A stretch of 64,000 nucleotides of DNA from Zootoca vivipara. Its lineage: Eukaryota. Both the position numbers and the translations under genes were made by a program. This document shows, piece by piece, positions 30,493 through 55,677 of this stretch. The stretch spans positions 120,280,001 to 120,344,000 of the forward strand of contig NC_083278.1 in NCBI RefSeq assembly GCF_963506605.1, read 5' to 3'. Numbering within the stretch: the stretch's first letter is position 1; every line of letters starts with the position of its first letter. The notes beneath the pieces were generated by a model. The model saw nothing but the letters and a program-made list of their open reading frames with translations. It was not told where the DNA came from and searched no databases.

Positions 30493-33400
30493 ATGCACTT
30501 CTCCATCCCCGAGACCGAGAGCCGCGCCGCGGACGGCGCCAACGCCGCCTATGTGGTGCGTGGCTGGACGGGGCAGGAGGAGGAGGAGGGCGCCCCCCGG
30601 GAGGGAGGGAGGGAGGGAAACGCCGACGCCCCCCGGAGAGGACCGGACATCCCGCTCTTCCCGTCCCCCCCAGCCGCTCGCGGGAGCCGCCACCGCCTGT
30701 CTGGGTGTCCGCTTGGGCCCCGACGGGACGGCCTCTGCTGCCGGGCTGGCCGGTGGCCCTCTTCTCTTTCCCGGTCGCGCTGCCCGGGGAAGTAGCGGGA
30801 CAAGGGCTCCTCCGCGGCTCAGGCTCCGTCTGCCCCCCCCCAAGCAAAGCCAGGCCGGAGGGCCTTAGTGTGGGGCCTCCCGTCCTGCGCCGCTTACCGG
30901 GGCAGAGTCACGCCAGTGCCGCCCGCCTCCTCCCCTCCCCGATCCATTTCCAAGCGGGACCCCCTTCGGAGGAGGAGGAGGAAGGCCCATCGGGCTGCCA
31001 GCCTGGGGTGCGTGCCAGCTGCGCCAAGCGGCCCCTTGGCTTGGGCCTTCTGCTCCTGCTGCGGGGGCCACGGACTTTCCTGCTCCGGCCCTTCGAAGCC
31101 TCCTTCCAGAGGAGAAGAAGGTGGGGGAGGGGTTCAGGGCCCCCTTCACTTGCCCCGCCACATCCCGACTGTCCTTGGGGTGAGGCCCGCTTGGCCCCCC
31201 GACGTGCCCCCCCTTCTCTCCCCTAGAGATCAACTGGAAAGGTTCCAAGAACTCAGGGCAGGAAGGAGATTAATGATAATTTCTTCAAACCGTTTAAAGC
31301 AGGCATCCCCAGACTTCGGCCCTCCAGATGTTTTGGACTACAGTCCCCATCATCCCTGACCACGGGTCCTCTTAGCTAGGGATCATGGGAGTTGTAGGCC
31401 AAAACATCTGGAGGGCCGCAGTTTGGGGATGCCTGGTTTAAAGCTTCCAAGTCATGAGACCAATTCCAGTTAGAACAATTTTCCAATACAGGACAAGGCC
31501 TTGTTTCCTCTATTCTTCATCAGCTCTAGTTTCATGGTCAAAGTGTGCCAATTGCGTTTGCCTTACCTGGCCTCACCTTTCTCTCACCTGCCAGGCCTAC
31601 AACATCCATGTCAACGGGGTCTTGCACTGCCAGGTGCGCTACAGCCAGCTGCTGGGCCTGCATGAACAGGTAGGGGGGTGCATGGCAGGGGGGTTGGGCT
31701 GGATGACCCTTGGGGGTCCCTTCCAACAGACTGCATGCACAGGCCAAGGGGTGTTGGCTGGGTGCTTCCCCCCCAATTGGGGTGTGGGGGTCTGGCCCCT
31801 TCTTCTGAAGTCGGGCTGGGGGCTGACACGCTCTCCCTCCTTGCAGCTCAGGAAGGAGTATGGGGCCAACGTTGTGCCCGCCTTCCCCCCGAAGAAGATC
31901 TTTACCCTCACCCCGGTGGAGGTGGAGCAGCGGCGGGAGCAGCTAGAGAAATACATGCAGGCAGGTGAGTCCCTGGGAAGGGGGGGGCTTGGGGGGTCCT
32001 GGGGAGGGGGAGCCTGGCCAGGAGCCCCCCAGGCTGATGGCTCCCCTTCTTTCTCTCCTCCTGCCCCACAGTGCGCCAGGACCCCTTGCTGGGAGGCAGC
32101 GAGATCTTCAACAGCTTCCTGCGCAAGGCTCAGCAGGTGAGGGGGGGCAGGGGAGGCGGGGGGAGGGGCCCGGTGGGCGAAGGGCCAGCCGCTGACCCTC
32201 TTTGTGCCCCCCCCAGGAGACCCAGCAGATCCCCACAGAGGAGGTGCAGCTGGAGGTGCTGCTGTCCAACGGACAGACGGTCAAGGTCAACCTCCTCACC
32301 TCGGACCAGACGGAGGACCTCCTGGAGGCGAGTCCTTTTGGGAGGGGGAGTGCGATCGACATGTCCAGAAAGGATTTTTTTTTGGGGGGGGCAGGGAGTT
32401 TATTAAGAAATCCAAGAGGAAGTTAATGATGTACCAAAGTTAAAACATTAAAGCAGATTGTAAGTTAATGCCTTGAATGTGTTTTCTGCCTTTCTTAAGA
32501 CGGCAGGTCTTTTTCCCCAGAGAAGGGAGGGAGGGGGAAAGGGGAGGAAGCAGCTGCTTTTGGTGACCCCCCCCCCAATTGCTCCCCATTGTCCGCAGGC
32601 CGTGGCCTCCAAGCTGGACCTGCCAGAGGACCTGATAGGCTACTTCCACCTCTTCCTGGTGCGAGAAGCCAAGGACGGGGCCTTTTCCTGTGAGTGTCCT
32701 CCCTCCCCCCACCCCACCCCACGCCCACCTGACCTGACCCGCTTGGCAGGATTGGGGAGGGAAAGGAGGGGGAATTTGGGGGGCGGGAAGGAGGGGCAAT
32801 GGTCTGGGTTCTGGTGCTGCAGCTCTGCCTTGGTTTTGTTCCCAGTCATCCGGAAGCTGCAGGAGTTTGAGCTGCCCTACGTGTCGGTCACCAGCCTCCG
32901 CAACCCCGAGTACAAGATCCTTTTGCGCAAGAGGTGAGGGGGCTGCTGCTGCCACGGGGGGGGGGACCCCAGAGGCCAGACCCCCAGGCAGTGCAGTCCC
33001 TCGAATGCAGGCTTCCTCAGACTCAGCCCTCCAGATGTTTTGAGACTACAATTCCCATCATCCCTGATCACTGGTCCTGCTAGCTAGGGATCATGGGAGT
33101 TGTAGTCCAAAACATGGCAGGGGGTTGGACTGGATGGCCCTTGTGGTCTCTTCCAACTCTATGATTCTATTCTAACATCTGGAGGGCCCAGTTGGAGGAA
33201 ACCTGCTCTAACGGCATCTGCTCCCCCTTCTCCCCATAGCTACTGGGACTCTGCCTTCGACGATGACGTGATGGAGCAGCGGGTGGGGCTGAACCTGCTC
33301 TACGCCCAGGTGAGCGCCGGGACCCTGGCTGGGCTACGGGGTTCAACTAGATGACCCTCGGTGTCCCCTCAAACTCTATACAGCTCCAAGATTCCTCTCC

Positions 33401-35187
33401 TGTCCCCTTCCAGACGGTGGCCGACATCGAGAGGGGCTGGATCCTGGCAAACAAAGAGCAGCATCGCCAGCTGAAGTCCCTGCAGGAGAAAGTCTCCAAA
33501 AAGGAGGTTGGTTGGGACCCTGCATTGGTTGGGCGCTGCCAGCCCCCAGCTCCTCTGTTTGGAGGGCTCCAACACTGCCTACGATTCCTGGGTTTTGGAG
33601 GGTTGGACTGGAGGACCCTTTAGTACCCCCTCCAACAGAGATTCCCACTCTTTTTTTCCTTGCCGCAGTTCATCCGCCTGGCGCAGACCCTCAAGTATTA
33701 CGGCTATCTCAAGTTTGACCCCTGTGTGACGGACTTCCCCGAGAAGGGCTGCCACGTCATTGTGGGTGCCGGGAACAGCGAGCTGAACTTCCAGGTCAAG
33801 CTGCCCAACGACCAGATCAAGGAGGGCAGCTTCAAAGTGACGCGCATGCGCTGCTGGAGGGTCACATCCTCAGTGAGTGATGCGCAGGGAGCCCCTTTCA
33901 ATTGCCCCTAGTCCTGTGCCCGTCTGGCCGATTGGGCAGGTGGCTGCCTCTCGGCCCGCTTTCTCCCCTGGCAATTTGTGGGTGTGTCGTCCCCCCCCCC
34001 TCAAGCGCAGAAAGGCTTCACACACACACCCCTGCTCCTTTCCAGGTCCCCGTGCATAACGGGACGTCTGGCCCAGCAGGCAGCAAGTCGGAGGTGAAAC
34101 TGGAGTTGGCCTTTGAGTACCTGATGAGCAAAGACCGCCTACAATGGGTCGCCATCACCAGCCCCCAGGTAGGCCTAGCAGTGAGGCGGGAGGGTTTGGC
34201 CCTGGGGGGCAGCTGCATCCGTCCACACTGGGACCCCCTTGCCCTGCCCCATACCCGCTTCCGCCCTCGAGAGCACGCCTGCCCAATAACACACTCCAAA
34301 CACTTCTTGAGAAATGCAAACCGGATTTTATTCTAGTCTGACTCACAGCCCCAAAAATATGGCGCAAGAGGCTGGACTTCCTGCCTGAGGTCAGCAAAAC
34401 CGGGGCTCTTGCTGGGGGGGGGGGCGGGGGCAGCGTGGCACATGGGACTAACATCACAAGATCTCTCCGTGTCGTTCCCCCCCCCCCGCAGGCGATAATG
34501 CTGAGCATCTGTTTGCAGTCGATGGTGGACGAGCTGATGGTCAAGAAGTCTGGGGGCAGCATCCGCAAGGTGAGGCTCTGGGCCCCCAGCAGACCTGGGG
34601 GGGCAGGGCGGGGGGCAGCAATCTTGCTCTGCTTTCCCGGTTGTCCCAATTAGAGTGGGGCTGAAACAGGACCACCCTGTTTCTGAGGAGCACGAGATTC
34701 ACCTACTTCGCTGTCATTCCCCCCCCCCCACAAGCTGTTTCGCCGGCGAACCAACGGTGCCCTGCAGCGCTCCGACAGCCAGCAAGCTGTGAAGTCCCCC
34801 CCTCTCCTGGTAAGAAGCCCCTAACCCCGCTAGACCCCTGCCCCAGCTTGCCCGTGGGGGGGCTTGGTCTCCTCTGACATGTCTGCCTGTCCCAGCAGGA
34901 TTCGCCCGATGCCAGCCGGGACTCCCTCACGAAGGTTGCGGTGAGTAGCGCCTCCCTTTGCCTCTCCCTCGATCCCTGACTTGTGGAAGGAGACCCCAGG
35001 GGTCATCTAGCCCCAGCTCCAAGGGGCTGCCTGTTCTCACTCTCCCCCCTCATCCTTCCTTCCCCAGAGCAAGCTCAGCTCGGTCAGCCTGAGAGCCATC
35101 AGCCATTCCAGCTCCGCCACGGACATCGGGGCGAACGATTTTCATGGCAACTACGCCTTCGAGGGCATCGGCGACGAGGACCTGTAG
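30493..35187 (+). CDS. SNX17: Sorting nexin 17 (PX-FERM), about 471 aa
   Basis: Exons 30493-30555, 31595-31669, 31847-31964, 32072-32136, 32217-32327 (GC donor), 32599-32689, 32846-32933, 33240-33309, 33414-33506, 33669-33872, 34046-34168, 34492-34569, 34735-34809, 34899-34940, 35068-35187. Sum 1416 nt. Begins MHFSIPETESR and ends GNYAFEGIGDEDL*. Confidence 0.97.
31300..31435. mobile_element. Short hAT MITE
   Basis: Near-palindromic caggcatcccca...tggggatgcctg; 8-bp TSD gtttaaag. Confidence 0.85.
33008..33205. mobile_element. hAT MITE interrupted by a 58-bp CR1 tail (33116-33173)
   Basis: Same family as 31300 and 42242; aacat duplicated around the CR1 tail. Confidence 0.8.
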
Positions 35188-39700: not shown

Positions 39701-41256
39701 GTGGAACCAGCTCATTAATAAGGGTGAGGACTGGAGGGTGCTCACTGGAGGTTGCTAAGCAGCTGTTGGGTGGCTATCTGTCCGGAAGTCTTTCTGCATT
39801 GCAAGGGGTTGGACCCCCACCCCCGCCCTGCCCCACATACCTGTCTCCTGCTCTGCAGTCGCTGGGCCCTCCATCTCCGCCTCCGACTCCCCCTGCGCCC
39901 CGGGGCTGTGGCGCTGCAGGGGGTTGCCCCGGGCACATCGGCAGGTGCAGGAGCCGCAGCGCAGCGGGCGCTCCTGGCCATGGACCCGCTGGTGCCTCTT
40001 GAGGTTGCCGAGGCTGCTGCAGGCAAAGGGGCAGGTGGGGCATCGGTAGGGCTTCTCTCCCGTGTGGGTGCGCAGGTGGCGTGTCAGGTTGACCAGCTGG
40101 GCTGAGGCGTAGGGGCAGTGCGGGCAGCGGTAGGGCTTCTCCCCATTGTGGGTCTTCATGTGGCGCTTGAGGTGGCTGGAGTAGTGCGAGGCAAAGGGGC
40201 ACAGCTGGCAGGAGAAGACCACCCGCCCCTTGGCGGAACCTTCTTCCTCCTCCTCCTCCTCCTCCTCCAGCTCTTCCTCCTCGGGCAGGCAGCAGGCGGC
40301 AGAGGCGGGCGCAGGCAGGCCGCAGTGCTGGCAAGCCCGGCCGGGCCCCTCGCCATTGTCCTGGGCCTGGCACAGTGGCGGGAACTCCTCATCACTCAGC
40401 ACGTAGGACGAGAGTCCGGGCGTCCCCCCGAGGGAGTCTGTGGCACACAAGGAGGGGGCATCAGGGGGGCAGCGGGGGGCATCCTCACCTCCGCCAGTCC
40501 CTTTCCTGCTGGCACAACAGGGGGTTACCACAGTGGGGGGGGGAGCGATCCCTAACCCTTTTCTGGCAGCCCTGGGGGAGCCCTTCCTCTGCCTGCAGCC
40601 CCCCTGCCCATCCGCCCCTCCCCCCATAGCTGTCAAGTTCTCCCTTTTTTTTTAAGGGAAATTCCCTTCTGCTGAATAGGCTTCCTCGCGAAAAAAGGGA
40701 AAACTTGACAGGTCTGATTCCGCGCTGCGCTCCGACCCTCCCGGCTGCCTCTGCCCGCCGCCCGCTTCCCGCCGCACCTTCCGAGTCCTTCTCGAAGGCC
40801 AGGCTGGCGGCGGCGCCGCTCTCCTCCTCGTCGTCCTCGTCCTCCAGCTCCAGCTCGTGTTCCGAGAGGAAGGCGCCCGGCGGAGCCAGGCCCTCCTCGC
40901 CCGGAGGATCGACCGCCGTGCCCGCCGCGTCCACTGCAAGAGACCGAGACGGGGAGGGGCGGACGGGGCGATCCGGTCAGAGACGGGCGCGGCGGTCCCG
41001 GGCAGCCCCGCCCCCGCCCCAACCCGGAAAAGGACCCCCACACGCCCCCCGCCACCCACACGCCCCCCGCCACCCACACGCCCCCCCCCCGCCGCCCGGT
41101 CCAAGCGGCGAGTCCGTATCGGCGGAAGAGGCTCCCTTTACCCGCCCCGGAGGGACCCGGACGGGGCCCCCGCCTCCCCACGCGGCCCGCCGCCCCCGAT
41201 CCCGGCCCGCGCTGACCTTTGACGGGCTGCGGGTGGCGCTGCTTCCGGCGGGGCAT
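36756..41256 (-). CDS. ZNF513: C2H2 zinc finger protein 513, about 482 aa, 3+5 fingers
   Basis: Exons 41217-41256, 40778-40933, 39841-40437, 36756-37411 (1449 nt). Begins [13 protein letters not shown]; fingers include [16 protein letters not shown] and [16 protein letters not shown]; syntenic with SNX17. Confidence 0.95.
37690..38470 (-). mobile_element. Young CR1 LINE 3' fragment (~780 bp)
   Basis: ORF2 C-terminus ([32 protein letters not shown]...); 5' truncated. Confidence 0.92.
39040..39685 (+). mobile_element. L2-type LINE 3' fragment
   Basis: [34 protein letters not shown] and a (tta)n tail; related short tails near 9165-9265, 24405-24563 and 25665-25775. Confidence 0.8.
40625..40716. 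mobile_element. Mini-MITE hairpin in ZNF513 intron 2
   Basis: ctgtcaagttctcccttttt ... aaaaagggaaaacttgacag; ends resemble the TIRs of the 21018 element; no clear TSD. Confidence 0.6.
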
Positions 41257-48459: not shown

Positions 48460-49299
48460 AGATTCTAAGCACGCCGAATTCGGTCGGGAGCAGCCGCTGT
48501 CCGTGGTGCTGAACAAGCGCGACCGCTCTCCCTGTCTCTGTCCAGCCTCCGGGTCTGGAGACGCGCCTCGCTCCCCAAGAGCGCAGCCCCCCGCGATTGT
48601 CCTCTCCTATCCCGACTCCTTCTTTCTGGGATGTTGCCCAAACTGGCGCCCGCGAACCCTTCCGCCCAGTGGTAGGAGGGCAGGTGGGGGGAAGGCTGCG
48701 CTCGTACTCCCCAACCATCATTCCTCTAGCCAGTGACTAAGGTCTCCCTCGATGCCAGGGGCTGGGTTAAGGGAGGGGGTCAGGGAGGGGTCTGCTGCTC
48801 GCTTCCCGATCTCCACAGCGGAAGGAGTGCTCATAGTGGCTGGGAAAGGTCTCGGGCTCAAGGAGGGGGGGGGAAGCAGATGCTCGGAGTGCAGAAGGTC
48901 CCAGGTTCAATCTTTGCGTCCCCAGGTAAGGTTGGTAGACTCCAGGGAGACCTTGGAGAGCCTCTGCCTGTGGAAGCGGACTGTCTGGGGACAGAGGGGT
49001 CGCTCCGAAATGCTTTGACATGCCCTTTCCCTCTCCTCACATACAATTACGTATCGGATTGAAAAACAGATAGTATGGTCCAGCAGGAAGCCTTACTGAG
49101 AGAGTCCACAATCCTACAATTCTCCTCCATGACTTCCTTATGCAGAGCTCTCTGGTCAGGATCCAGGAACGCCCACTCCTGCTCTGTAAAATACACAGCG
49201 ACATCTTCAAAGCACAGAGGACCCTGAAGGAAAAAGAAAAACGTCCTCTTCTGAGACAGCCTAAAGATTATCTATACATTGCTTGGTTGTTTTCTGTCT

Positions 49300-50105: not shown

Positions 50106-53100
50106 ATGAAGCGGCCGCTGGCGGAGCCTCCCTCCCGGGGCGCCTCGGGCCTCTTCGGAAGGCAGCCCGCAGCAGCGCCGGAGCCGGAGGACGCGCTGAG
50201 CCGTGCCGAGGAGGCGTCCGCGGGGACCCCGTCCATCCCAGCGCCGACTGCGGAGGACGAGGCGTCGGGGGGCTTGCGAGAATGCCCTTTGTGCCTGCTG
50301 CCCCAGCCCGCGGCGGCCTTCCCGGAGCTCTCGTCGTGCGCGCACCTGTCCTGCCTCACCTGTCTGCAGCAGTACCTGCGCATCGAGATCAGCGAGAGCC
50401 GCGTGCAGGTGGCCTGTCCGCACTGCCCAGCCCCGCTCCAGCCGGCAGAGGTGCACCAGCTGCTGCGCCCGGAGCCCGCCTTGCGCGACAAGTACGAGGA
50501 GTACCTGCTCCGCCGCCTGCTTGTCGCCGACCCGGGAACGCGCTGGTGCCCAGCCCCGGATTGCAGGTGCGCTAGGCCGGCGCGGGGGGTGAGTGGGATA
50601 AAGGCCCGGTTGCTCCAGGAAAGGACCCGCTTTGCGCGCCCAAGGGCCCGGTGGCCAATGCCCGACGGCCCTGGAAGAGACCCTCCCCTGCATGACCCCC
50701 TGGAGAGAGGGAGGGAGTGAGGGAGGGGGTGGGGTGGGGCCACCCAGAGCTGCCTCGCAAGAAGGCGGCTTCGGAGGAGGTTGCTTTGTGACCGGTTGTG
50801 CGCTTGCCTCCCACCAGAGGGCGTTCAAGGCCGGCTCGGCTGGTTCTTCTCAGGAAGACCCTCAGAAAGAGCACAGTCCAATCCTTGACCCCTGGATGCC
50901 GGGAAGGCGCCCCTGCAGAGCTCAAGGCACCTGCGGGCCGTCTGTCCAGCCTGTTGCGCACAGCCCGCCCGCCCGCGGCCCCCAAGTCCGCTCACTTTGT
51001 TTCCCCGCCTGACGATGCTGCGACCCCCCCCCCCCCGCAAGGGCGGGCACCGGGCAGGACTTGGTTAGGGAAATCAGAACTTTTTTTTAGAGTGGGGCAG
51101 AACAAACGTGATTGTTTAGTTAAGTATTTCTCTTGTTTCACTTGATCTGGGGGGGGGAGCTGCCCCCCCTGGCTACGCCCATGCCCAAGCCTCCCTCAGC
51201 ACCTTTGGGCCCGGGGGTGGGGTGAGGAGGAGCTGTGCTTCCTGCTTTGCCTTGCAGAGAACTTGCAAGCCGGGAGGAGAAAGGGTTGGCTGGGGGGAGG
51301 CCGCTGGGGGCTCTGACTCCGCCCAAAGGCATCTCAGTCTGTTCCCAAGCTGGAACTGCGAAGCTGAAAACAGAAATAAAAAAATTCCTTCAGTAGCACC
51401 TTAAAGACCAACTAAGTTTTTATTATGGTATGAGCTTTCGTGTGCATGCATACTTCTTCAGATACACTGAAACAGAAGCGTCAGAATTTTTTTTTTATTT
51501 TTGCTTCGACTCAGACCAACACGGCTACCTACCTGTAACTAGAACTGAAAACAGAAGTTATCCCCCTCCCTCCCCGCGCAACACATCACACATTTCCCGT
51601 CAATTAAGGTGAAACACGTGTACTGTAATTCTGAATTGGATTGTGGAAGTAAGATTCTAAAGGTCTCGGGAAGGAAGACCTGTCCAGGCACATTAGAAGC
51701 GCAGCTGGCCGGGAGGCGCCCCTCGCCTCAGAGAGTCGAGCAGGAGCCTCTGGTGCCTGGAGGCCATAGACCAGAGTTTGGTTATTCCCGGCTGCAGAAT
51801 CGGGGCCCCAGACGGCAGCAGACAGTGGCTCCGGCCAGCCGTCTCACGAGGCCTTCCTTAGGGGGCGGGAGTGGAGAGTGGAGCTCACTGCTTCCCCCTC
51901 CTCTGCCATGTCAGGAAAGGACCACCATCTGGTTACGTGAGAGCCCGGTATCAGTAAAGGAGGGGGCAATGTCCCACTGGGCGGGGAGGACCAGGAAGGG
52001 CCAGGACAGCCTAACATTCTGATCCCCCTTTTCCTCCCGCTTCCAGAAGTGGCGGACTTGGGGGGGCGGGTTTATCGTGCTTACCCCTTTCTTCTAAAAG
52101 CGCCTCTGCTTGCAGCTACGCGGTCATCGCCTACGGCTGCGCCGAGTGCCCGCGCCTGGTCTGCGCCCGCCCGGACTGCCGCACCGAGTTCTGCTTCCAC
52201 TGCCGGCAGCCCTGGCACCCCGACGCCTCGTGCGAGCAGGCCTGGCGAGAATGGAGCCAGCAAGCGCCCCTGGGCGCCATGGAGCTCTCCCTGCAACTGA
52301 TCCGGAAGGAGGAAGCCGGGGCGGCGGCGCCAGGGGCTGCGCAGGGTGAGTGAAGCCCCCTTCCCGAGGGACGAGGGGGCGACGGCAGTGGGAAGGGCAG
52401 GGGGCTTTAGGGGGCCCTTTCCCCGCCTAAACGCCCCTCTCTCTCCTCTCGGCCCCCGGGCCTGAGAAGGTCTCGGCCCCGACCTGCCGCCTCTCTCCCC
52501 GCAGACAAGGACGCCATCAAGGTCTGCCCGCGCTGCGGGGCGCTCATCATGAAGGTCAACGACGGCAGCTGCAATCGCATGAACTGCACCATCTGCGGCT
52601 GCCTCTTCTGCTGGCTCTGCCTGCGCGAGATCACCGACGTCCACTTCCTCAGGTGCGACCTGGGGGGCGGAAAGAGGCGGGGGGCGGGCGGGCGGCCCAA
52701 GGAAAGGGCAGCAGGACAGGCTTGGCTCTTCCCAGCCTGCAGAAGTCGACTAAGGCGGCCGTCCTCCTTGTCCCGCTTGCCCGGAGGAAGCCCCGTCGAA
52801 GCAGACGCAAAAGGGAGGAAGGGAGCTCCGCTGGATTTGCACTCGCCCCTCATGGCGTTTATTGTGAAGCGGTTTGGTTCTGCTGGCTACCTGACCTGGG
52901 CAAAGACCGGCTCCCTCGGCCTGAAAGCGGAAATGAGCGCCGCACCCCAGAGTCGAATTGGACTGGACTTAACCGTCCAGGGGTCCTTTACCTTTTTATC
53001 CTTTTCTATACAGTGAAATAGTCCATCCCTCTCTCCTGCTAAAATGACAGGACGGAATGCAACCTAAACCCAAAGAAAATAATCAGCTCGGTGGACAACA

Positions 53101-55677
53101 GTTTCCCAATTCATAGAATGGTAGAGTTGGAAGAGACCACAAGGGCCATCCAGTCCAACCCCCTGCCAAGCAGGAAACACCATCAAAGCATTCTTGACAT
53201 ATGCCTGTCAAGCCTCCAAAGAAGGAGACTCCACCACACTCCTTGGCAGCAAATCCCACTGCCAAACAGCTCTTACTGTCAGGAAGTTCTTCCTAATGTT
53301 TAGGTGGAATCTTCTTTCTTGTAGTTTGAGCAAGGATCTTGTAATTGAGCAGGGATGCTTTGGATGCGACGCCTGCGTTGCAGCGGGTTGGACTGGATGA
53401 CCCCTGGGAAACCCTTTAGAATTCTACAGTTCCGTGATTCTATGAAATGCAGCCAAGGTTGACCACGAAGCAAAGTCCCGCCGGAGCAAAAGATGTTCTG
53501 GAGGGGCGGGAGGATTATCAGGAGGGAGGGAGGCGAAAACGTGGCAGGTGGATGGGCGCCTCGGCCTGTCAATCACATGGCAGTTATTAGGATGTCACGT
53601 GAGGGGCAGGTGAGTTGGGCTGCCCCACCTGTCAAATATCCTTTCCCCTCCAATCTTAAAAGGGACTGGGAGAGGTATGCAAAATCCATAGACTCATAGA
53701 AGTGTCGAGTTGGACGGAGCCCCCAAAAGCGAAATGGGGAGCTGGTGGTGGGGCTCCCCAAGAGGAGGCGCTCTGGTGCTCCTGTGGATGCTCTTCGACA
53801 CCCCCCTTGCTGACTCCCCCCCTTGTCGTCTCCTCAGTCCTTCCGGATGCACCTTTTGGGGGAAGAAGCGCTGGTCGCGCACGCGGAAGGTCCTGTGGCA
53901 GCTGGGGATGGTGCTGGGCGCCCCGATGGTGATCTCGCTGGTGGCGGGGATCGCCGTGCCCGTCATCACGCTGGGCATCCCCATCTACATGGGCAAGAAG
54001 GTAAGGAGGCCGCGGCTGCCCGGCCGTCCTGCTGCGCCCAGCCTGAAGGGGCCCAGAGGGAGGAGACCCACTGCCGCCTCCTTCTCCGCTCCCCGCCAGG
54101 TGCTGAGCCATGGACGCAAGAGCAAGCTTTCCGGCTGCCAGCAGTGCCTGTCGGTCGTGAGCAGCATCCTGCTCTCCCTCTTCGTGTCGCCCGTCATCAC
54201 CGCCGTCACTGTGGGTAAGGGCCACCAGGGGGTGCCTACCCGGCCGCGGCAGAGGGCACTGCTGCTGAGTGGCTAGAGCACCTGCCTCGCAACCAGGAGG
54301 TCCCGGAGGGTTCAGTCTCCAGGAAGGGCTGAGAATCCCCCACCCTAAACCCTGGAGAGCAGTTGCTGCTGCCAGTCAGTGTACACGGTATGGAGCTATT
54401 GAATGCAACTGCTCCTCTTCTTGTTGGACCCATCAGGACTAGAATCTTAATTCATTTTCATAGAAGAGCTGTATCTCCGCGGTGGAGCATCTGCCTTGCA
54501 TGCAAACGGTCCCGGGTTCACTCCCCGCGGGCATCTCCAGGAAGGGCTGGGAGAGACTCCTTGCGGCTTTCTCTGGTCCTGGATCGGCTGCTCCTCGGCC
54601 GCACCTCACACCAGCCTCTCTGCCCGCAGGCGTCGGGGTGCCCCTGATGCTCACCTACGTCTACGGGGTGGTGGTACTCTCGCTGTGCCGGAACCGCTGG
54701 GGCTGCGGAGGCGCACGCAGGAAGGCCGGGGAGCTCAGGGCCGTGGAGCTGGAGAACCTCGCCAAACGTACGTGAGTCCTGGGCCGCAGGAGCAGCGGGA
54801 GGGGGCGGCCTGGCCCGGAATCCCCTCTCCCTCAGCCAAGGCTCCGTCCCAACCGGGTGGGCGGAGAGCTCTCAACCGGTAGGGGGGCTGCAGTATGGAA
54901 GGGGCTTTTGTGGCAGAGACCCTCTGCCGGTCATCCTTGAAGCCTTGAGTCCTCTCTGCCCTCTCCGGTGCCAAGCGGACTAGGAACATGTTCATTTGGT
55001 TGTGCATTTATCTTCTGCTTTTTGCTGTAGTATCATTATGAAAGCCAGCCGGAGAACTTTTGATTTAAGGTGCCATATCACCTCTGAGCAAATCCTCTCT
55101 CCTCCTTCCTCTGCCTGTTGCAGTGAACGAGCTGCTGGCTGCGCTCCCCGCGCCGATGGGGGCTGAGGGAGGGGGGTCTTCTGCCGCCGCCGCCGCCGCT
55201 GCCGCCGCCATAGCTGCGCCCTTCCTGCCCAGCCGGAGCAGCGGGCAGCTGGAGGAGTCCTGCTCGAAGGGCCCGGAGAGCCCGTGGAACGAAGAAGCAG
55301 CCCAGGCCGCTTCCCGCAGGTCAGTCCAGTGGGCGGGGGCAGTGCGGTCTAGTGGTTAGAGTGCCGGGCCCAAGCTACCTCGCAGTGTTGTTCTGAATAT
55401 ACAATGGGGTGGGGAGAACCATCTAAGCCACGTGGAGCGCCTTAGAGGAAAAACGTGGGATAGAAATGTAATTATTATAAAATTATGCCCCCGGCCTTTT
55501 TTATGCTCTGTCCCGCGCAGGGACGGGCAGAACAGGATGGAGGTGGAGGTGGAGGTGGAGCCTCCGGCCGCCCACGAACACAGCCTCTGCAGCGCGGCGT
55601 CGGGCCAAAGCTTCTCCACAGATTCGCTCACCTACACCAGCGACGGCTGCAGTTTGGCCGGAGTGAGGACGGAGTGA
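50106..55677 (+). CDS. RNF19-family RBR (RING1-IBR-RING2) transmembrane E3 ubiquitin ligase, about 535 aa
   Basis: Exons 50106-50566, 52116-52345, 52505-52652, 53838-54000, 54100-54214, 54630-54767, 55124-55319, 55521-55677; 1608 nt, open frame, all GT-AG. RING1 [31 protein letters not shown]; [29 protein letters not shown]; RING2 [26 protein letters not shown]; [11 protein letters not shown] followed by hydrophobic segments. Confidence 0.92.
51386..51540. mobile_element. Penelope-like terminal fragment
   Basis: ttccttcagtagcaccttaaagaccaactaag...agaccaacacggctacctacctgtaact; same family as 26792. Confidence 0.7.
51428..51465 (-). ncRNA. Minimal type I hammerhead ribozyme motif
   Basis: Minus strand reads GUAU-CUGAAGA-A-GUAUGC-AU-GCACAC-GAAA-GC-UC-AUAC: conserved core boxes, stem I GUAU/AUAC, stem II, minimal palindromic stem III. 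Confidence 0.6.
52850..52997 (+). mobile_element. Sauria SINE 3' fragment
   Basis: ggctccctcggcctgaaagcggaaatgagcgccgcaccccagagtc...cctttaccttt. Confidence 0.7.
53111..53328 (-). mobile_element. Young CR1 3' fragment
   Basis: Same family tail, with a small internal deletion. Confidence 0.85.

What the first reader, a model, noticed from the sequence alone, without database searches (positions are those of the whole stretch)
52525..52652. Catalytic His replaced by Arg in RING2 (GSCNRMNC) of the RNF19-like ligase
Seen: the catalytic Cys (52570-52572) and the zinc-ligand Cys residues are intact, but the +2 residue is Arg (CGC, 52576-52578). Established: in Parkin, HOIP, HHARI and, as I recall, RNF19A/B (GSCNHM), this position is the His that activates the acceptor nucleophile. 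RNF216 has, from recall, GCNRM and is an active K63-chain builder. Inference: convergence on an RNF216-like active site could change chain linkage, nucleophile or pH dependence, so the paralogue may be functionally distinct and not redundant.
Basis: partly seen in the sequence, partly recalled or inferred. Interest (0 to 1): 0.75.

Follow-up and report, generated by a model that had tools for sequence, protein, structure and literature searches.

The report
Third RNF19 ligase lacking catalytic histidine
This lizard gene is an ancient third copy of the RNF19 ubiquitin ligase, kept from bichirs to birds, in which the active-site cysteine is intact but both helper residues are replaced; it is likely still an active enzyme that tags proteins by a different chemical route, not a copy of the RNF216 mechanism.

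Summary
Cys253 (52570-72) is intact and the +2 residue is Arg (CGC, 52576-78) in an intact 8-exon, 535-aa RING1-IBR-RING2-transmembrane gene. It is not a private variant. The gene belongs to a third vertebrate RNF19 clade (100/100 support) running from bichir and sturgeon to coelacanth, salamanders, squamates, crocodilians and birds. No member read lacks Arg (295 proteins, many near-copies). The same genome's RNF19A- and RNF19B-type genes and the lancelet and crinoid relatives have His, so Arg is derived. The RNF216 comparison holds for the residue only. This RING2 lacks the zinc-finger insert to which the literature credits K63 specificity, and 7 of 15 readable RBR active sites in this genome lack the His. 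Best reading: an active, membrane-anchored ligase with base-free, proximity-dependent ubiquitin transfer. Activity is untested. I found no paper on the paralogue, and the scan had not noted it before. It gives a natural matched pair for testing how His-less RBR ligases work.

The parts
50106..50566 (+). Exon 1: start codon, RING1 (residues ~60-107) and start of IBR
   Evidence: Gene model with GT donor; Pfam RING and IBR hits below cut-off for the single exon; exon 1-2 joint in spliced contigs
52116..52345 (+). Exon 2: rest of IBR and IBR-RING2 linker
   Evidence: exon 2-3 joint in X1 contig
52505..52652 (+). Exon 3: RING2 (Rcat) domain
   Evidence: Pfam IBR_1 29.3 bits, over cut-off; aligns to ARIH1 RING2
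52570..52572 (+). Cys253, predicted catalytic cysteine
   Evidence: Aligns with the catalytic Cys column of ARIH1 and parkin; no change across 233 distinct clade sequences
52576..52578 (+). Arg255 (CGC) in place of the triad His
52603..52605 (+). Leu264 (CTC) in place of the triad Glu; Gln in ray-finned fish
   Evidence: Aligns with ARIH1 Glu370, parkin Glu and RNF19A/B Glu; 167 Leu and 128 Gln, no Glu, among 295 Arg proteins
52642..52644 (+). His277, inferred second-site zinc ligand (shared with RNF19A/B), not a substitute catalytic His
   Evidence: Conserved in both His and Arg clades; ligand role inferred from the RING2 Cys/His spacing
53838..54000 (+). Exon 4: last RING2 Cys (Cys284, 53848-50) and first hydrophobic segment
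   Evidence: hydropathy windows starting at residues 298-314; exon 3-4 joint in X8, X1, X6
54100..54214 (+). Exon 5: second hydrophobic segment
54630..54767 (+). Exon 6: end of membrane region
55124..55319 (+). Exon 7: low-complexity tail
55521..55677 (+). Exon 8: tail and stop codon
   Evidence: model equals P0245; this last junction was not seen in the contigs listed

Best explanation
The gene is a third, bony-vertebrate RNF19 paralogue whose RING2 keeps the catalytic cysteine but has lost both the His and the Glu of the triad, and it is likely an active membrane-anchored RBR ligase that passes ubiquitin to substrate lysines without a general base. Shown: intact gene, spliced transcripts in related lizards, invariant Cys and Arg, Glu replaced by Gln or Leu, no substitute His, no zinc-finger insert. 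Inferred: (1) RING1 binds a UBE2L3-type E2 and Cys253 takes ubiquitin as a thioester, as in RNF19A; this step does not need the His in parkin, HOIP or HOIL-1. (2) Transfer to lysine is slower on free acceptors but efficient on substrates held close in the membrane, as for parkin H433 mutants on Mfn2. (3) Arg255 is kept for an electrostatic job: favouring the thiolate, the oxyanion or the neutral lysine, or gripping an acidic partner. Once His was gone, its partner Glu was freed. (4) Without an acceptor-ubiquitin platform it would make mono- or mixed-linkage products, not pure K63 chains.
For: Clade monophyly 100/100 with both diagnostic residues masked, nested with RNF19A and B at 99/96. Arg255 and Cys253 show 0 changes on a tree of 8.6 substitutions per site, where 41 of 305 non-Cys columns are unchanged and the median is 4 changes. 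RING2 is the most conserved part of the clade: 19 of 40 non-Cys columns invariant, against 5 of 41 in RING1 and 1 of 39 in IBR (four RING2 columns were partly imposed by my filter). RING1 zinc ligands and core hydrophobic residues are kept. His goes with Glu/Asp in 106 of 112 diverse family members; Arg never does, 0 of 11 and 0 of 295. Literature: parkin H433A slows acyl transfer only 5- to 10-fold and hardly affects Mfn2; RNF144A/B (Gln) build K6/11/48/63 chains (PMC8767196); RNF216 is active without the His (PMC7458406); HOIL-1 H510A still discharges to Lys (PMC11962058); RNF19A needs its RING2 Cys and UBE2L3 (PMC13038411).
Against: No activity data exist for this protein. HOIP H887A cannot form chains and traps the thioester (PMC7458406), so His loss can be crippling. 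The paralogue evolves much faster than RNF19A (RING2 exon, lizard against fish: 73-83% versus 98-100%) and the IBR-RING2 linker has no column at 99% conservation. Same-species RNA reads (about 6% of each of 3 runs, tissue unknown) gave next to no exon cover. The role given to Arg255 rests on chemistry alone; the AlphaFold model is too weak in RING2 (block pLDDT about 44-62) to place side chains.
Confidence: 0.55

Rival explanations
1. Stalled or slow-release ligase: Cys253 is charged with ubiquitin, but without His and Glu it discharges very poorly, so the protein would act as a long-lived thioester carrier, an E2 sink or a regulator of RNF19A/B.
For: HOIP H887A and HOIL-1 H510A accumulate the thioester. 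Both helper residues are lost and Leu264 cannot take part in catalysis. An invariant Cys fits this reading too.
Against: RNF216 and RNF144A/B are active without the His; parkin H433A keeps 15-20% activity. No evidence here of binding to RNF19A/B.
Confidence: 0.18
2. Drift then entrenchment: Arg was fixed during relaxed selection after duplication and is now kept for packing; chemistry and products would be much like RNF19A/B, and any distinct role comes from expression or substrate binding.
For: Long stem branch, 0.61-0.72 substitutions per site; His to Arg is one base change; 9 other divergent RNF19-family proteins keep Cys but carry Leu, Gln, Glu, Val, Ser or Lys there; humans have only RNF19A and B (PMC13038411).
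Against: No change, not even to Lys or back to His, over 8.6 substitutions per site, while most other Arg columns change (16 of 20).
Confidence: 0.17
3. RNF216-type K63 chain builder: the Arg reproduces RNF216's chemistry and linkage.
For: Same Arg at +2; ray-finned orthologues even share RNF216's Cys/Arg/Gln set.
Against: No zinc-finger insert: RING2 has the same length as RNF19A/B, whereas the genome's RNF216-type exon carries the Cys/His-rich insert. RNF216 needs residues beyond the RBR for activity (PMC6411869); here a membrane segment follows within about 14 residues. The RING2 exons are 34% identical. Lobe-finned copies have Leu at the third position. I could not read the RNF216 structure paper, so a direct role of its Arg is not excluded.
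Confidence: 0.09
4. Private variant, sequencing error or decaying pseudogene.
For: Next to no exon cover in three same-species RNA runs.
Against: Intact frame and splice sites; same codon in other contig sets and spliced transcripts; Arg in all orthologues read.
Confidence: 0.01

Closest known systems
RNF19A (Dorfin) and RNF19B (NKLAM)
   Same: RING1-IBR-RING2 followed by membrane segments; matching exon boundaries; RING2 exon 66% identical to both paralogues of the same genome; one clade with them, 99/96.
   Different: Triad Cys/Arg/Leu (Gln in ray-finned fish) instead of Cys/His/Glu; shorter tail; much faster evolution; no counterpart among the human RBR ligases. Databases label it RNF19A, RNF19B or '-like' without distinction.
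RNF216 (TRIAD3; PDB 7m4m, 7m4n, 8eb0)
   Same: Arg two residues after the catalytic Cys (PMC8767196); Gln at the third position, shared with the ray-finned orthologues.
   Different: RNF216 has a zinc-finger insert in RING2 and needs a C-terminal extension; this protein has neither, has membrane segments, and is only 34% identical over the RING2 exon.
RNF144A/B and RNF14 (other His-less RBR ligases)
   Same: No His at +2 (Gln; Lys) and no Glu at the third position; RNF144A/B are also membrane-anchored and active, with mixed chains.
   Different: Other subfamilies; neither has a close His-bearing sister in the same genome.
HOIL-1 (RBCK1)
   Same: No His at +2 (Trp).
   Different: HOIL-1 supplies a substitute His510 from a C-terminal zinc cluster; no new conserved His exists in this clade.

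Membership tests
RBR E3 ligases | RING1-IBR-RING2 order with zinc ligands intact | tested here: met
   best sequence and fold matches in the PDB are RBR ligases
RBR E3 ligases | Catalytic Cys in RING2 | tested here: met
   Cys253 aligns with the ARIH1/parkin catalytic column and is invariant
RBR E3 ligases | Forms an E3~ubiquitin thioester and transfers ubiquitin | not testable with these tools
   Needs biochemistry
RBR E3 ligases (canonical triad; typical, not defining) | His at Cys+2 and Glu/Gln as third residue | tested here: not met
   Arg255 and Leu264; the triad is not fully conserved in the family (PMC7458406)
RNF19/Dorfin subfamily | Groups with RNF19A/B in a tree | tested here: met
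   99/96 with RNF19A and B against lancelet, crinoid and unnamed outgroups
RNF19/Dorfin subfamily | Conserved post-RING2 segment and membrane helices; shared exon boundaries | tested here: met
Orthologue of RNF19A or RNF19B | Is the genome's RNF19A or RNF19B locus | tested here: not met
   Both exist separately on contigs C8 and C6 with His and Glu; the Arg clade is separate at 100/100
RNF216-type K63-specific ligase | Arg at Cys+2 | tested here: met
RNF216-type K63-specific ligase | Zinc-finger insert in the C-terminal half of RING2 and soluble C-terminal extension | tested here: not met
RNF216-type K63-specific ligase | Builds K63-only chains | not testable with these tools
   Needs linkage assays
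HOIL-1-type ligase with relocated His | A substitute conserved His after RING2 | tested here: not met
   Only His80, 182, 188 and 277 are conserved at 90% or more, all shared with RNF19A

The most novel reading that the evidence does not exclude
The active site was rebuilt for a different acceptor: with the His-Glu relay gone and an invariant Arg beside the thioester, a few residues from the membrane anchor, this ligase ubiquitinates a non-protein, anionic membrane acceptor such as a phospholipid or glycan head group, with Arg255 holding its acidic group. Leads: RNF19A/B already ubiquitinate a small-molecule amine (PMC13038411) and Arg-bearing RNF216 ubiquitinates maltose in vitro (PMC9834252). 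This would be a ubiquitin chemistry of fish, amphibians, reptiles and birds that humans lack.
Probability: 0.07. Interest if true: 0.85.

Novelty: new variant of a known kind. Interest (0 to 1): 0.42.

Why it matters
Reviews state that His-less RBR ligases must use other modes of acyl transfer but leave the mode open (PMC7458406, PMC8767196). The known cases have no close His-bearing sister, so the effect of the residue cannot be separated from the rest of the domain. Here RNF19A/B (Cys/His/Glu) and the third paralogue (Cys/Arg/Gln or Leu) share two thirds of RING2 and sit in the same genomes, including chicken and carp, so reciprocal swaps make the question directly testable. It also matters for annotation: fish and bird records named RNF19A or RNF19B are often this paralogue, so expression or knockout results filed under those names may be misassigned.

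Tried and rejected
AlphaFold2 on a 26-row alignment gave mean pLDDT 56, pTM 0.32 and a weak RING2; it shows residues 255 and 264 on strands but cannot place side chains. Its fold search returned RBR ligases without separating subfamilies. ESM Atlas added only IBR-family clusters. No RNA holder on record was listed; the RNA label of X1, X6, X8 is a guess, but their contigs skip the introns. Sharks, frogs, turtles and mammals: no Arg-type named hit, but those lists were cut (120 of 134, 120 of 929, 20 of 20) and one search carries no names, so absence is not established. A His-bearing protein that fell beside the Arg clade (P0328, 92/67, long branch) proved to be a divergent dragonet RNF19A-like copy; I treat the placement as long-branch attraction. 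Whether the Arg clade is nearer A or B is unresolved. RNF216 was missed by the Pfam searches of the genome and found by a short pattern; PF26200 is not in the library. The two primary RNF216 mechanism papers were not held. No complex prediction was run. Earlier scan notes: none at this place or on this sequence; the eight word matches concern other RBR cases and were not used.

Full report
Observation. Window 52525-52652 is the RING2 exon of an RBR ubiquitin ligase. The catalytic-position Cys is TGC at 52570-72 and the +2 codon is CGC, Arg, at 52576-78. Eight exons from 50106 to 55677, all with AG/GT ends, give a stop-free 535-aa protein: RING1, IBR, RING2, hydrophobic segments at about residues 298-332 and 349-392, and a low-complexity tail. 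The model equals the annotated lacertid protein P0245 (XP_034966291.1, 'RNF19B-like') letter for letter. Two contig sets cover the codon without difference (they may be the window's own source). Contigs from three runs labelled as other organisms join the exons at the predicted junctions and keep the Arg codon. Raw RNA reads under the same species label (about 6% of each of 3 runs, tissue not given) gave next to no exon cover, so expression may be low or restricted.

What the gene is. The genome holds three RNF19-type RING2 exons: this one and two with His, on contigs C6 and C8, whose other exons match RNF19B and RNF19A types with the same intron positions (the A/B names rest on the trees and on recall). 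A search with the RING2 exon listed 120 of 134 hits, all with Arg (119 by pattern, P0035 read by eye); that query favours Arg. A search that did not use RING2 (coelacanth RING1-IBR) listed 120 of 929 hits: 110 Arg, 8 His, 2 without a RING2. All 8 His proteins have RNF19A-type RING2 sequence, and the 7 placed in a tree fell with RNF19A. Over the 309 proteins held, 295 had Arg, 8 His and 6 no RING2; these include isoforms, near-copies and the window's own protein twice. Named carriers: bichir, sturgeon, paddlefish, gar, bowfin, many teleosts, coelacanth, lungfish, caecilians, salamanders, lizards, snakes, crocodilians and birds. With the two diagnostic residues masked, 12 Arg proteins form one clade (100/100, stem 0.61) that splits into ray-finned and lobe-finned branches and sits with RNF19A and RNF19B (99/96) against 24 database representatives, three of which fell inside the vertebrate group. 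Lancelet and crinoid relatives have His, as do 112 of 134 readable family representatives (150 listed of 6075; 16 unreadable). His is ancestral and Arg arose once, before the ray-finned/lobe-finned split (about 430 million years, recalled). A sturgeon gene model fuses SNX17 to this paralogue's tail, and SNX17 lies at 31.5-34.6 kb in the window, which points to conserved neighbourhood. An origin in the early vertebrate genome duplications is plausible but is recall, not tested.

The third triad residue is also gone. Position 264 aligns with ARIH1 Glu370 and with the Glu of parkin and RNF19A/B. It is Gln in 128 and Leu in 167 Arg proteins, never Glu, and changed once on the tree. Among His-bearing representatives it is Glu or Asp in 106 of 112. 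No new conserved His appears anywhere in the clade, so there is no HOIL-1-style substitute.

Constraint. On 233 distinct core sequences (tree length 8.6 substitutions per site) Arg255, Cys253 and the whole loop 250-255 show no change; 41 of 305 non-Cys columns are unchanged and 16 of 20 Arg columns change. The set was picked by having Arg, but the census above found no clade member with another residue. RING2 is the clade's most conserved domain. Against this, the paralogue evolves faster than RNF19A in every exon compared, and its IBR-RING2 linker is variable and shortened in birds and crocodilians.

How unusual. Not very, at family level. In this genome 8 readable RBR sites have His and 7 do not: Gln twice, Lys once, Trp twice, Arg twice (gene names recalled from the motifs; one site is split by an intron and unreadable). 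PMC8767196 (passages and first part of the Discussion) lists HOIL-1, RNF14, RNF144A/B and RNF216 as lacking the His, notes RNF216's Arg, and reports that parkin H433A slows acyl transfer 5- to 10-fold while the well-positioned substrate Mfn2 is hardly affected. PMC7458406 (passages), PMC9834252 and PMC9853177 (passages) tie chain or substrate specificity to zinc-finger inserts in RING2. The genome's RNF216-type exon has such an insert; this gene's RING2 has the length of RNF19A/B and runs into the membrane segment. PMC11962058 (passages) shows HOIL-1 without its His loses O-linked transfer and gains Lys transfer. PMC13038411 (passages) shows RNF19A needs its RING2 Cys, a membrane segment and UBE2L3. 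PMC3940038, PMC10575588, PMC7658342, PMC6411869 and PMC1570150 were seen as passages. The RNF216 structure paper and Seenivasan 2019 were not held; they, and supplements that I did not open, may assign a role to RNF216's Arg.

Mechanism. I commit to an active, membrane-anchored ligase that loads ubiquitin on Cys253 and releases it to lysines without a general base, relying on proximity, with Arg255 kept for an electrostatic role (0.55). All catalytic steps are inferred. Rivals: stalled thioester carrier (0.18), drift and entrenchment with RNF19A-like chemistry (0.17), RNF216-type K63 builder (0.09), error (0.01).

Novelty. The protein is annotated in many genomes, under RNF19A, RNF19B or '-like' names. 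Ten full-text searches found no paper on the third paralogue or its active site; one search gave only 3 listings, for an aphid, a mosquito and a carp-goldfish transcriptome study, which I did not open. Subscription papers on RBR evolution are not covered and may list the gene. Verdict: a new variant of a known kind, real and ancient, of moderate interest (0.42), mainly as a matched pair for testing His-free RBR catalysis.

Noticed in passing
window 49047-49271, minus strand: A KRAB box (Pfam 68.8 bits) lies about 0.8 kb upstream of the ligase's start codon on the opposite strand, across a CpG-rich stretch; its gene was not traced.
   Followed up: no
window 31538-34569 (+), 39755-40651 (-), about 59780-63750 (-): Neighbours: SNX17-type gene, a C2H2 zinc-finger gene and a PP2C gene with an acidic insert (ZNF513 and PPM1G by recall). 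From recall these three are neighbours in human without an RNF19 gene between them.
   Followed up: partly
L016 (G000:C8:690393) and L018 (G000:C7:92616566): Two HOIL-1-type RING2 exons with Trp at +2 in one genome; from recall, non-mammalian vertebrates keep a SHARPIN/RBCK1-related second gene.
   Followed up: no
P0367, P0370, P0412, P0414, P0420, P0434, P0436, P0444, P0452, P0419: Divergent RNF19-family proteins (named ones from a snail, a tick and a rotifer relative) keep the catalytic Cys but carry Glu, Leu, Gln, Val, Ser or Lys at +2; P0419 has lost the Cys. His loss recurs in this family.
   Followed up: partly
P0048, P0021, P0103 (alignment A2, columns 415-450): The helix after IBR is shortened and proline-rich in crocodilian and bird orthologues but kept in fish, amphibians and squamates.
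   Followed up: no
P0328 cluster: Dragonets carry a strongly diverged RNF19A-like protein with an altered loop before the catalytic Cys.
   Followed up: partly
window 51370-51545: A short repeated element with inverted ends in intron 1 draws thousands of reads from elsewhere in the genome, likely a small non-autonomous transposon.
   Followed up: no
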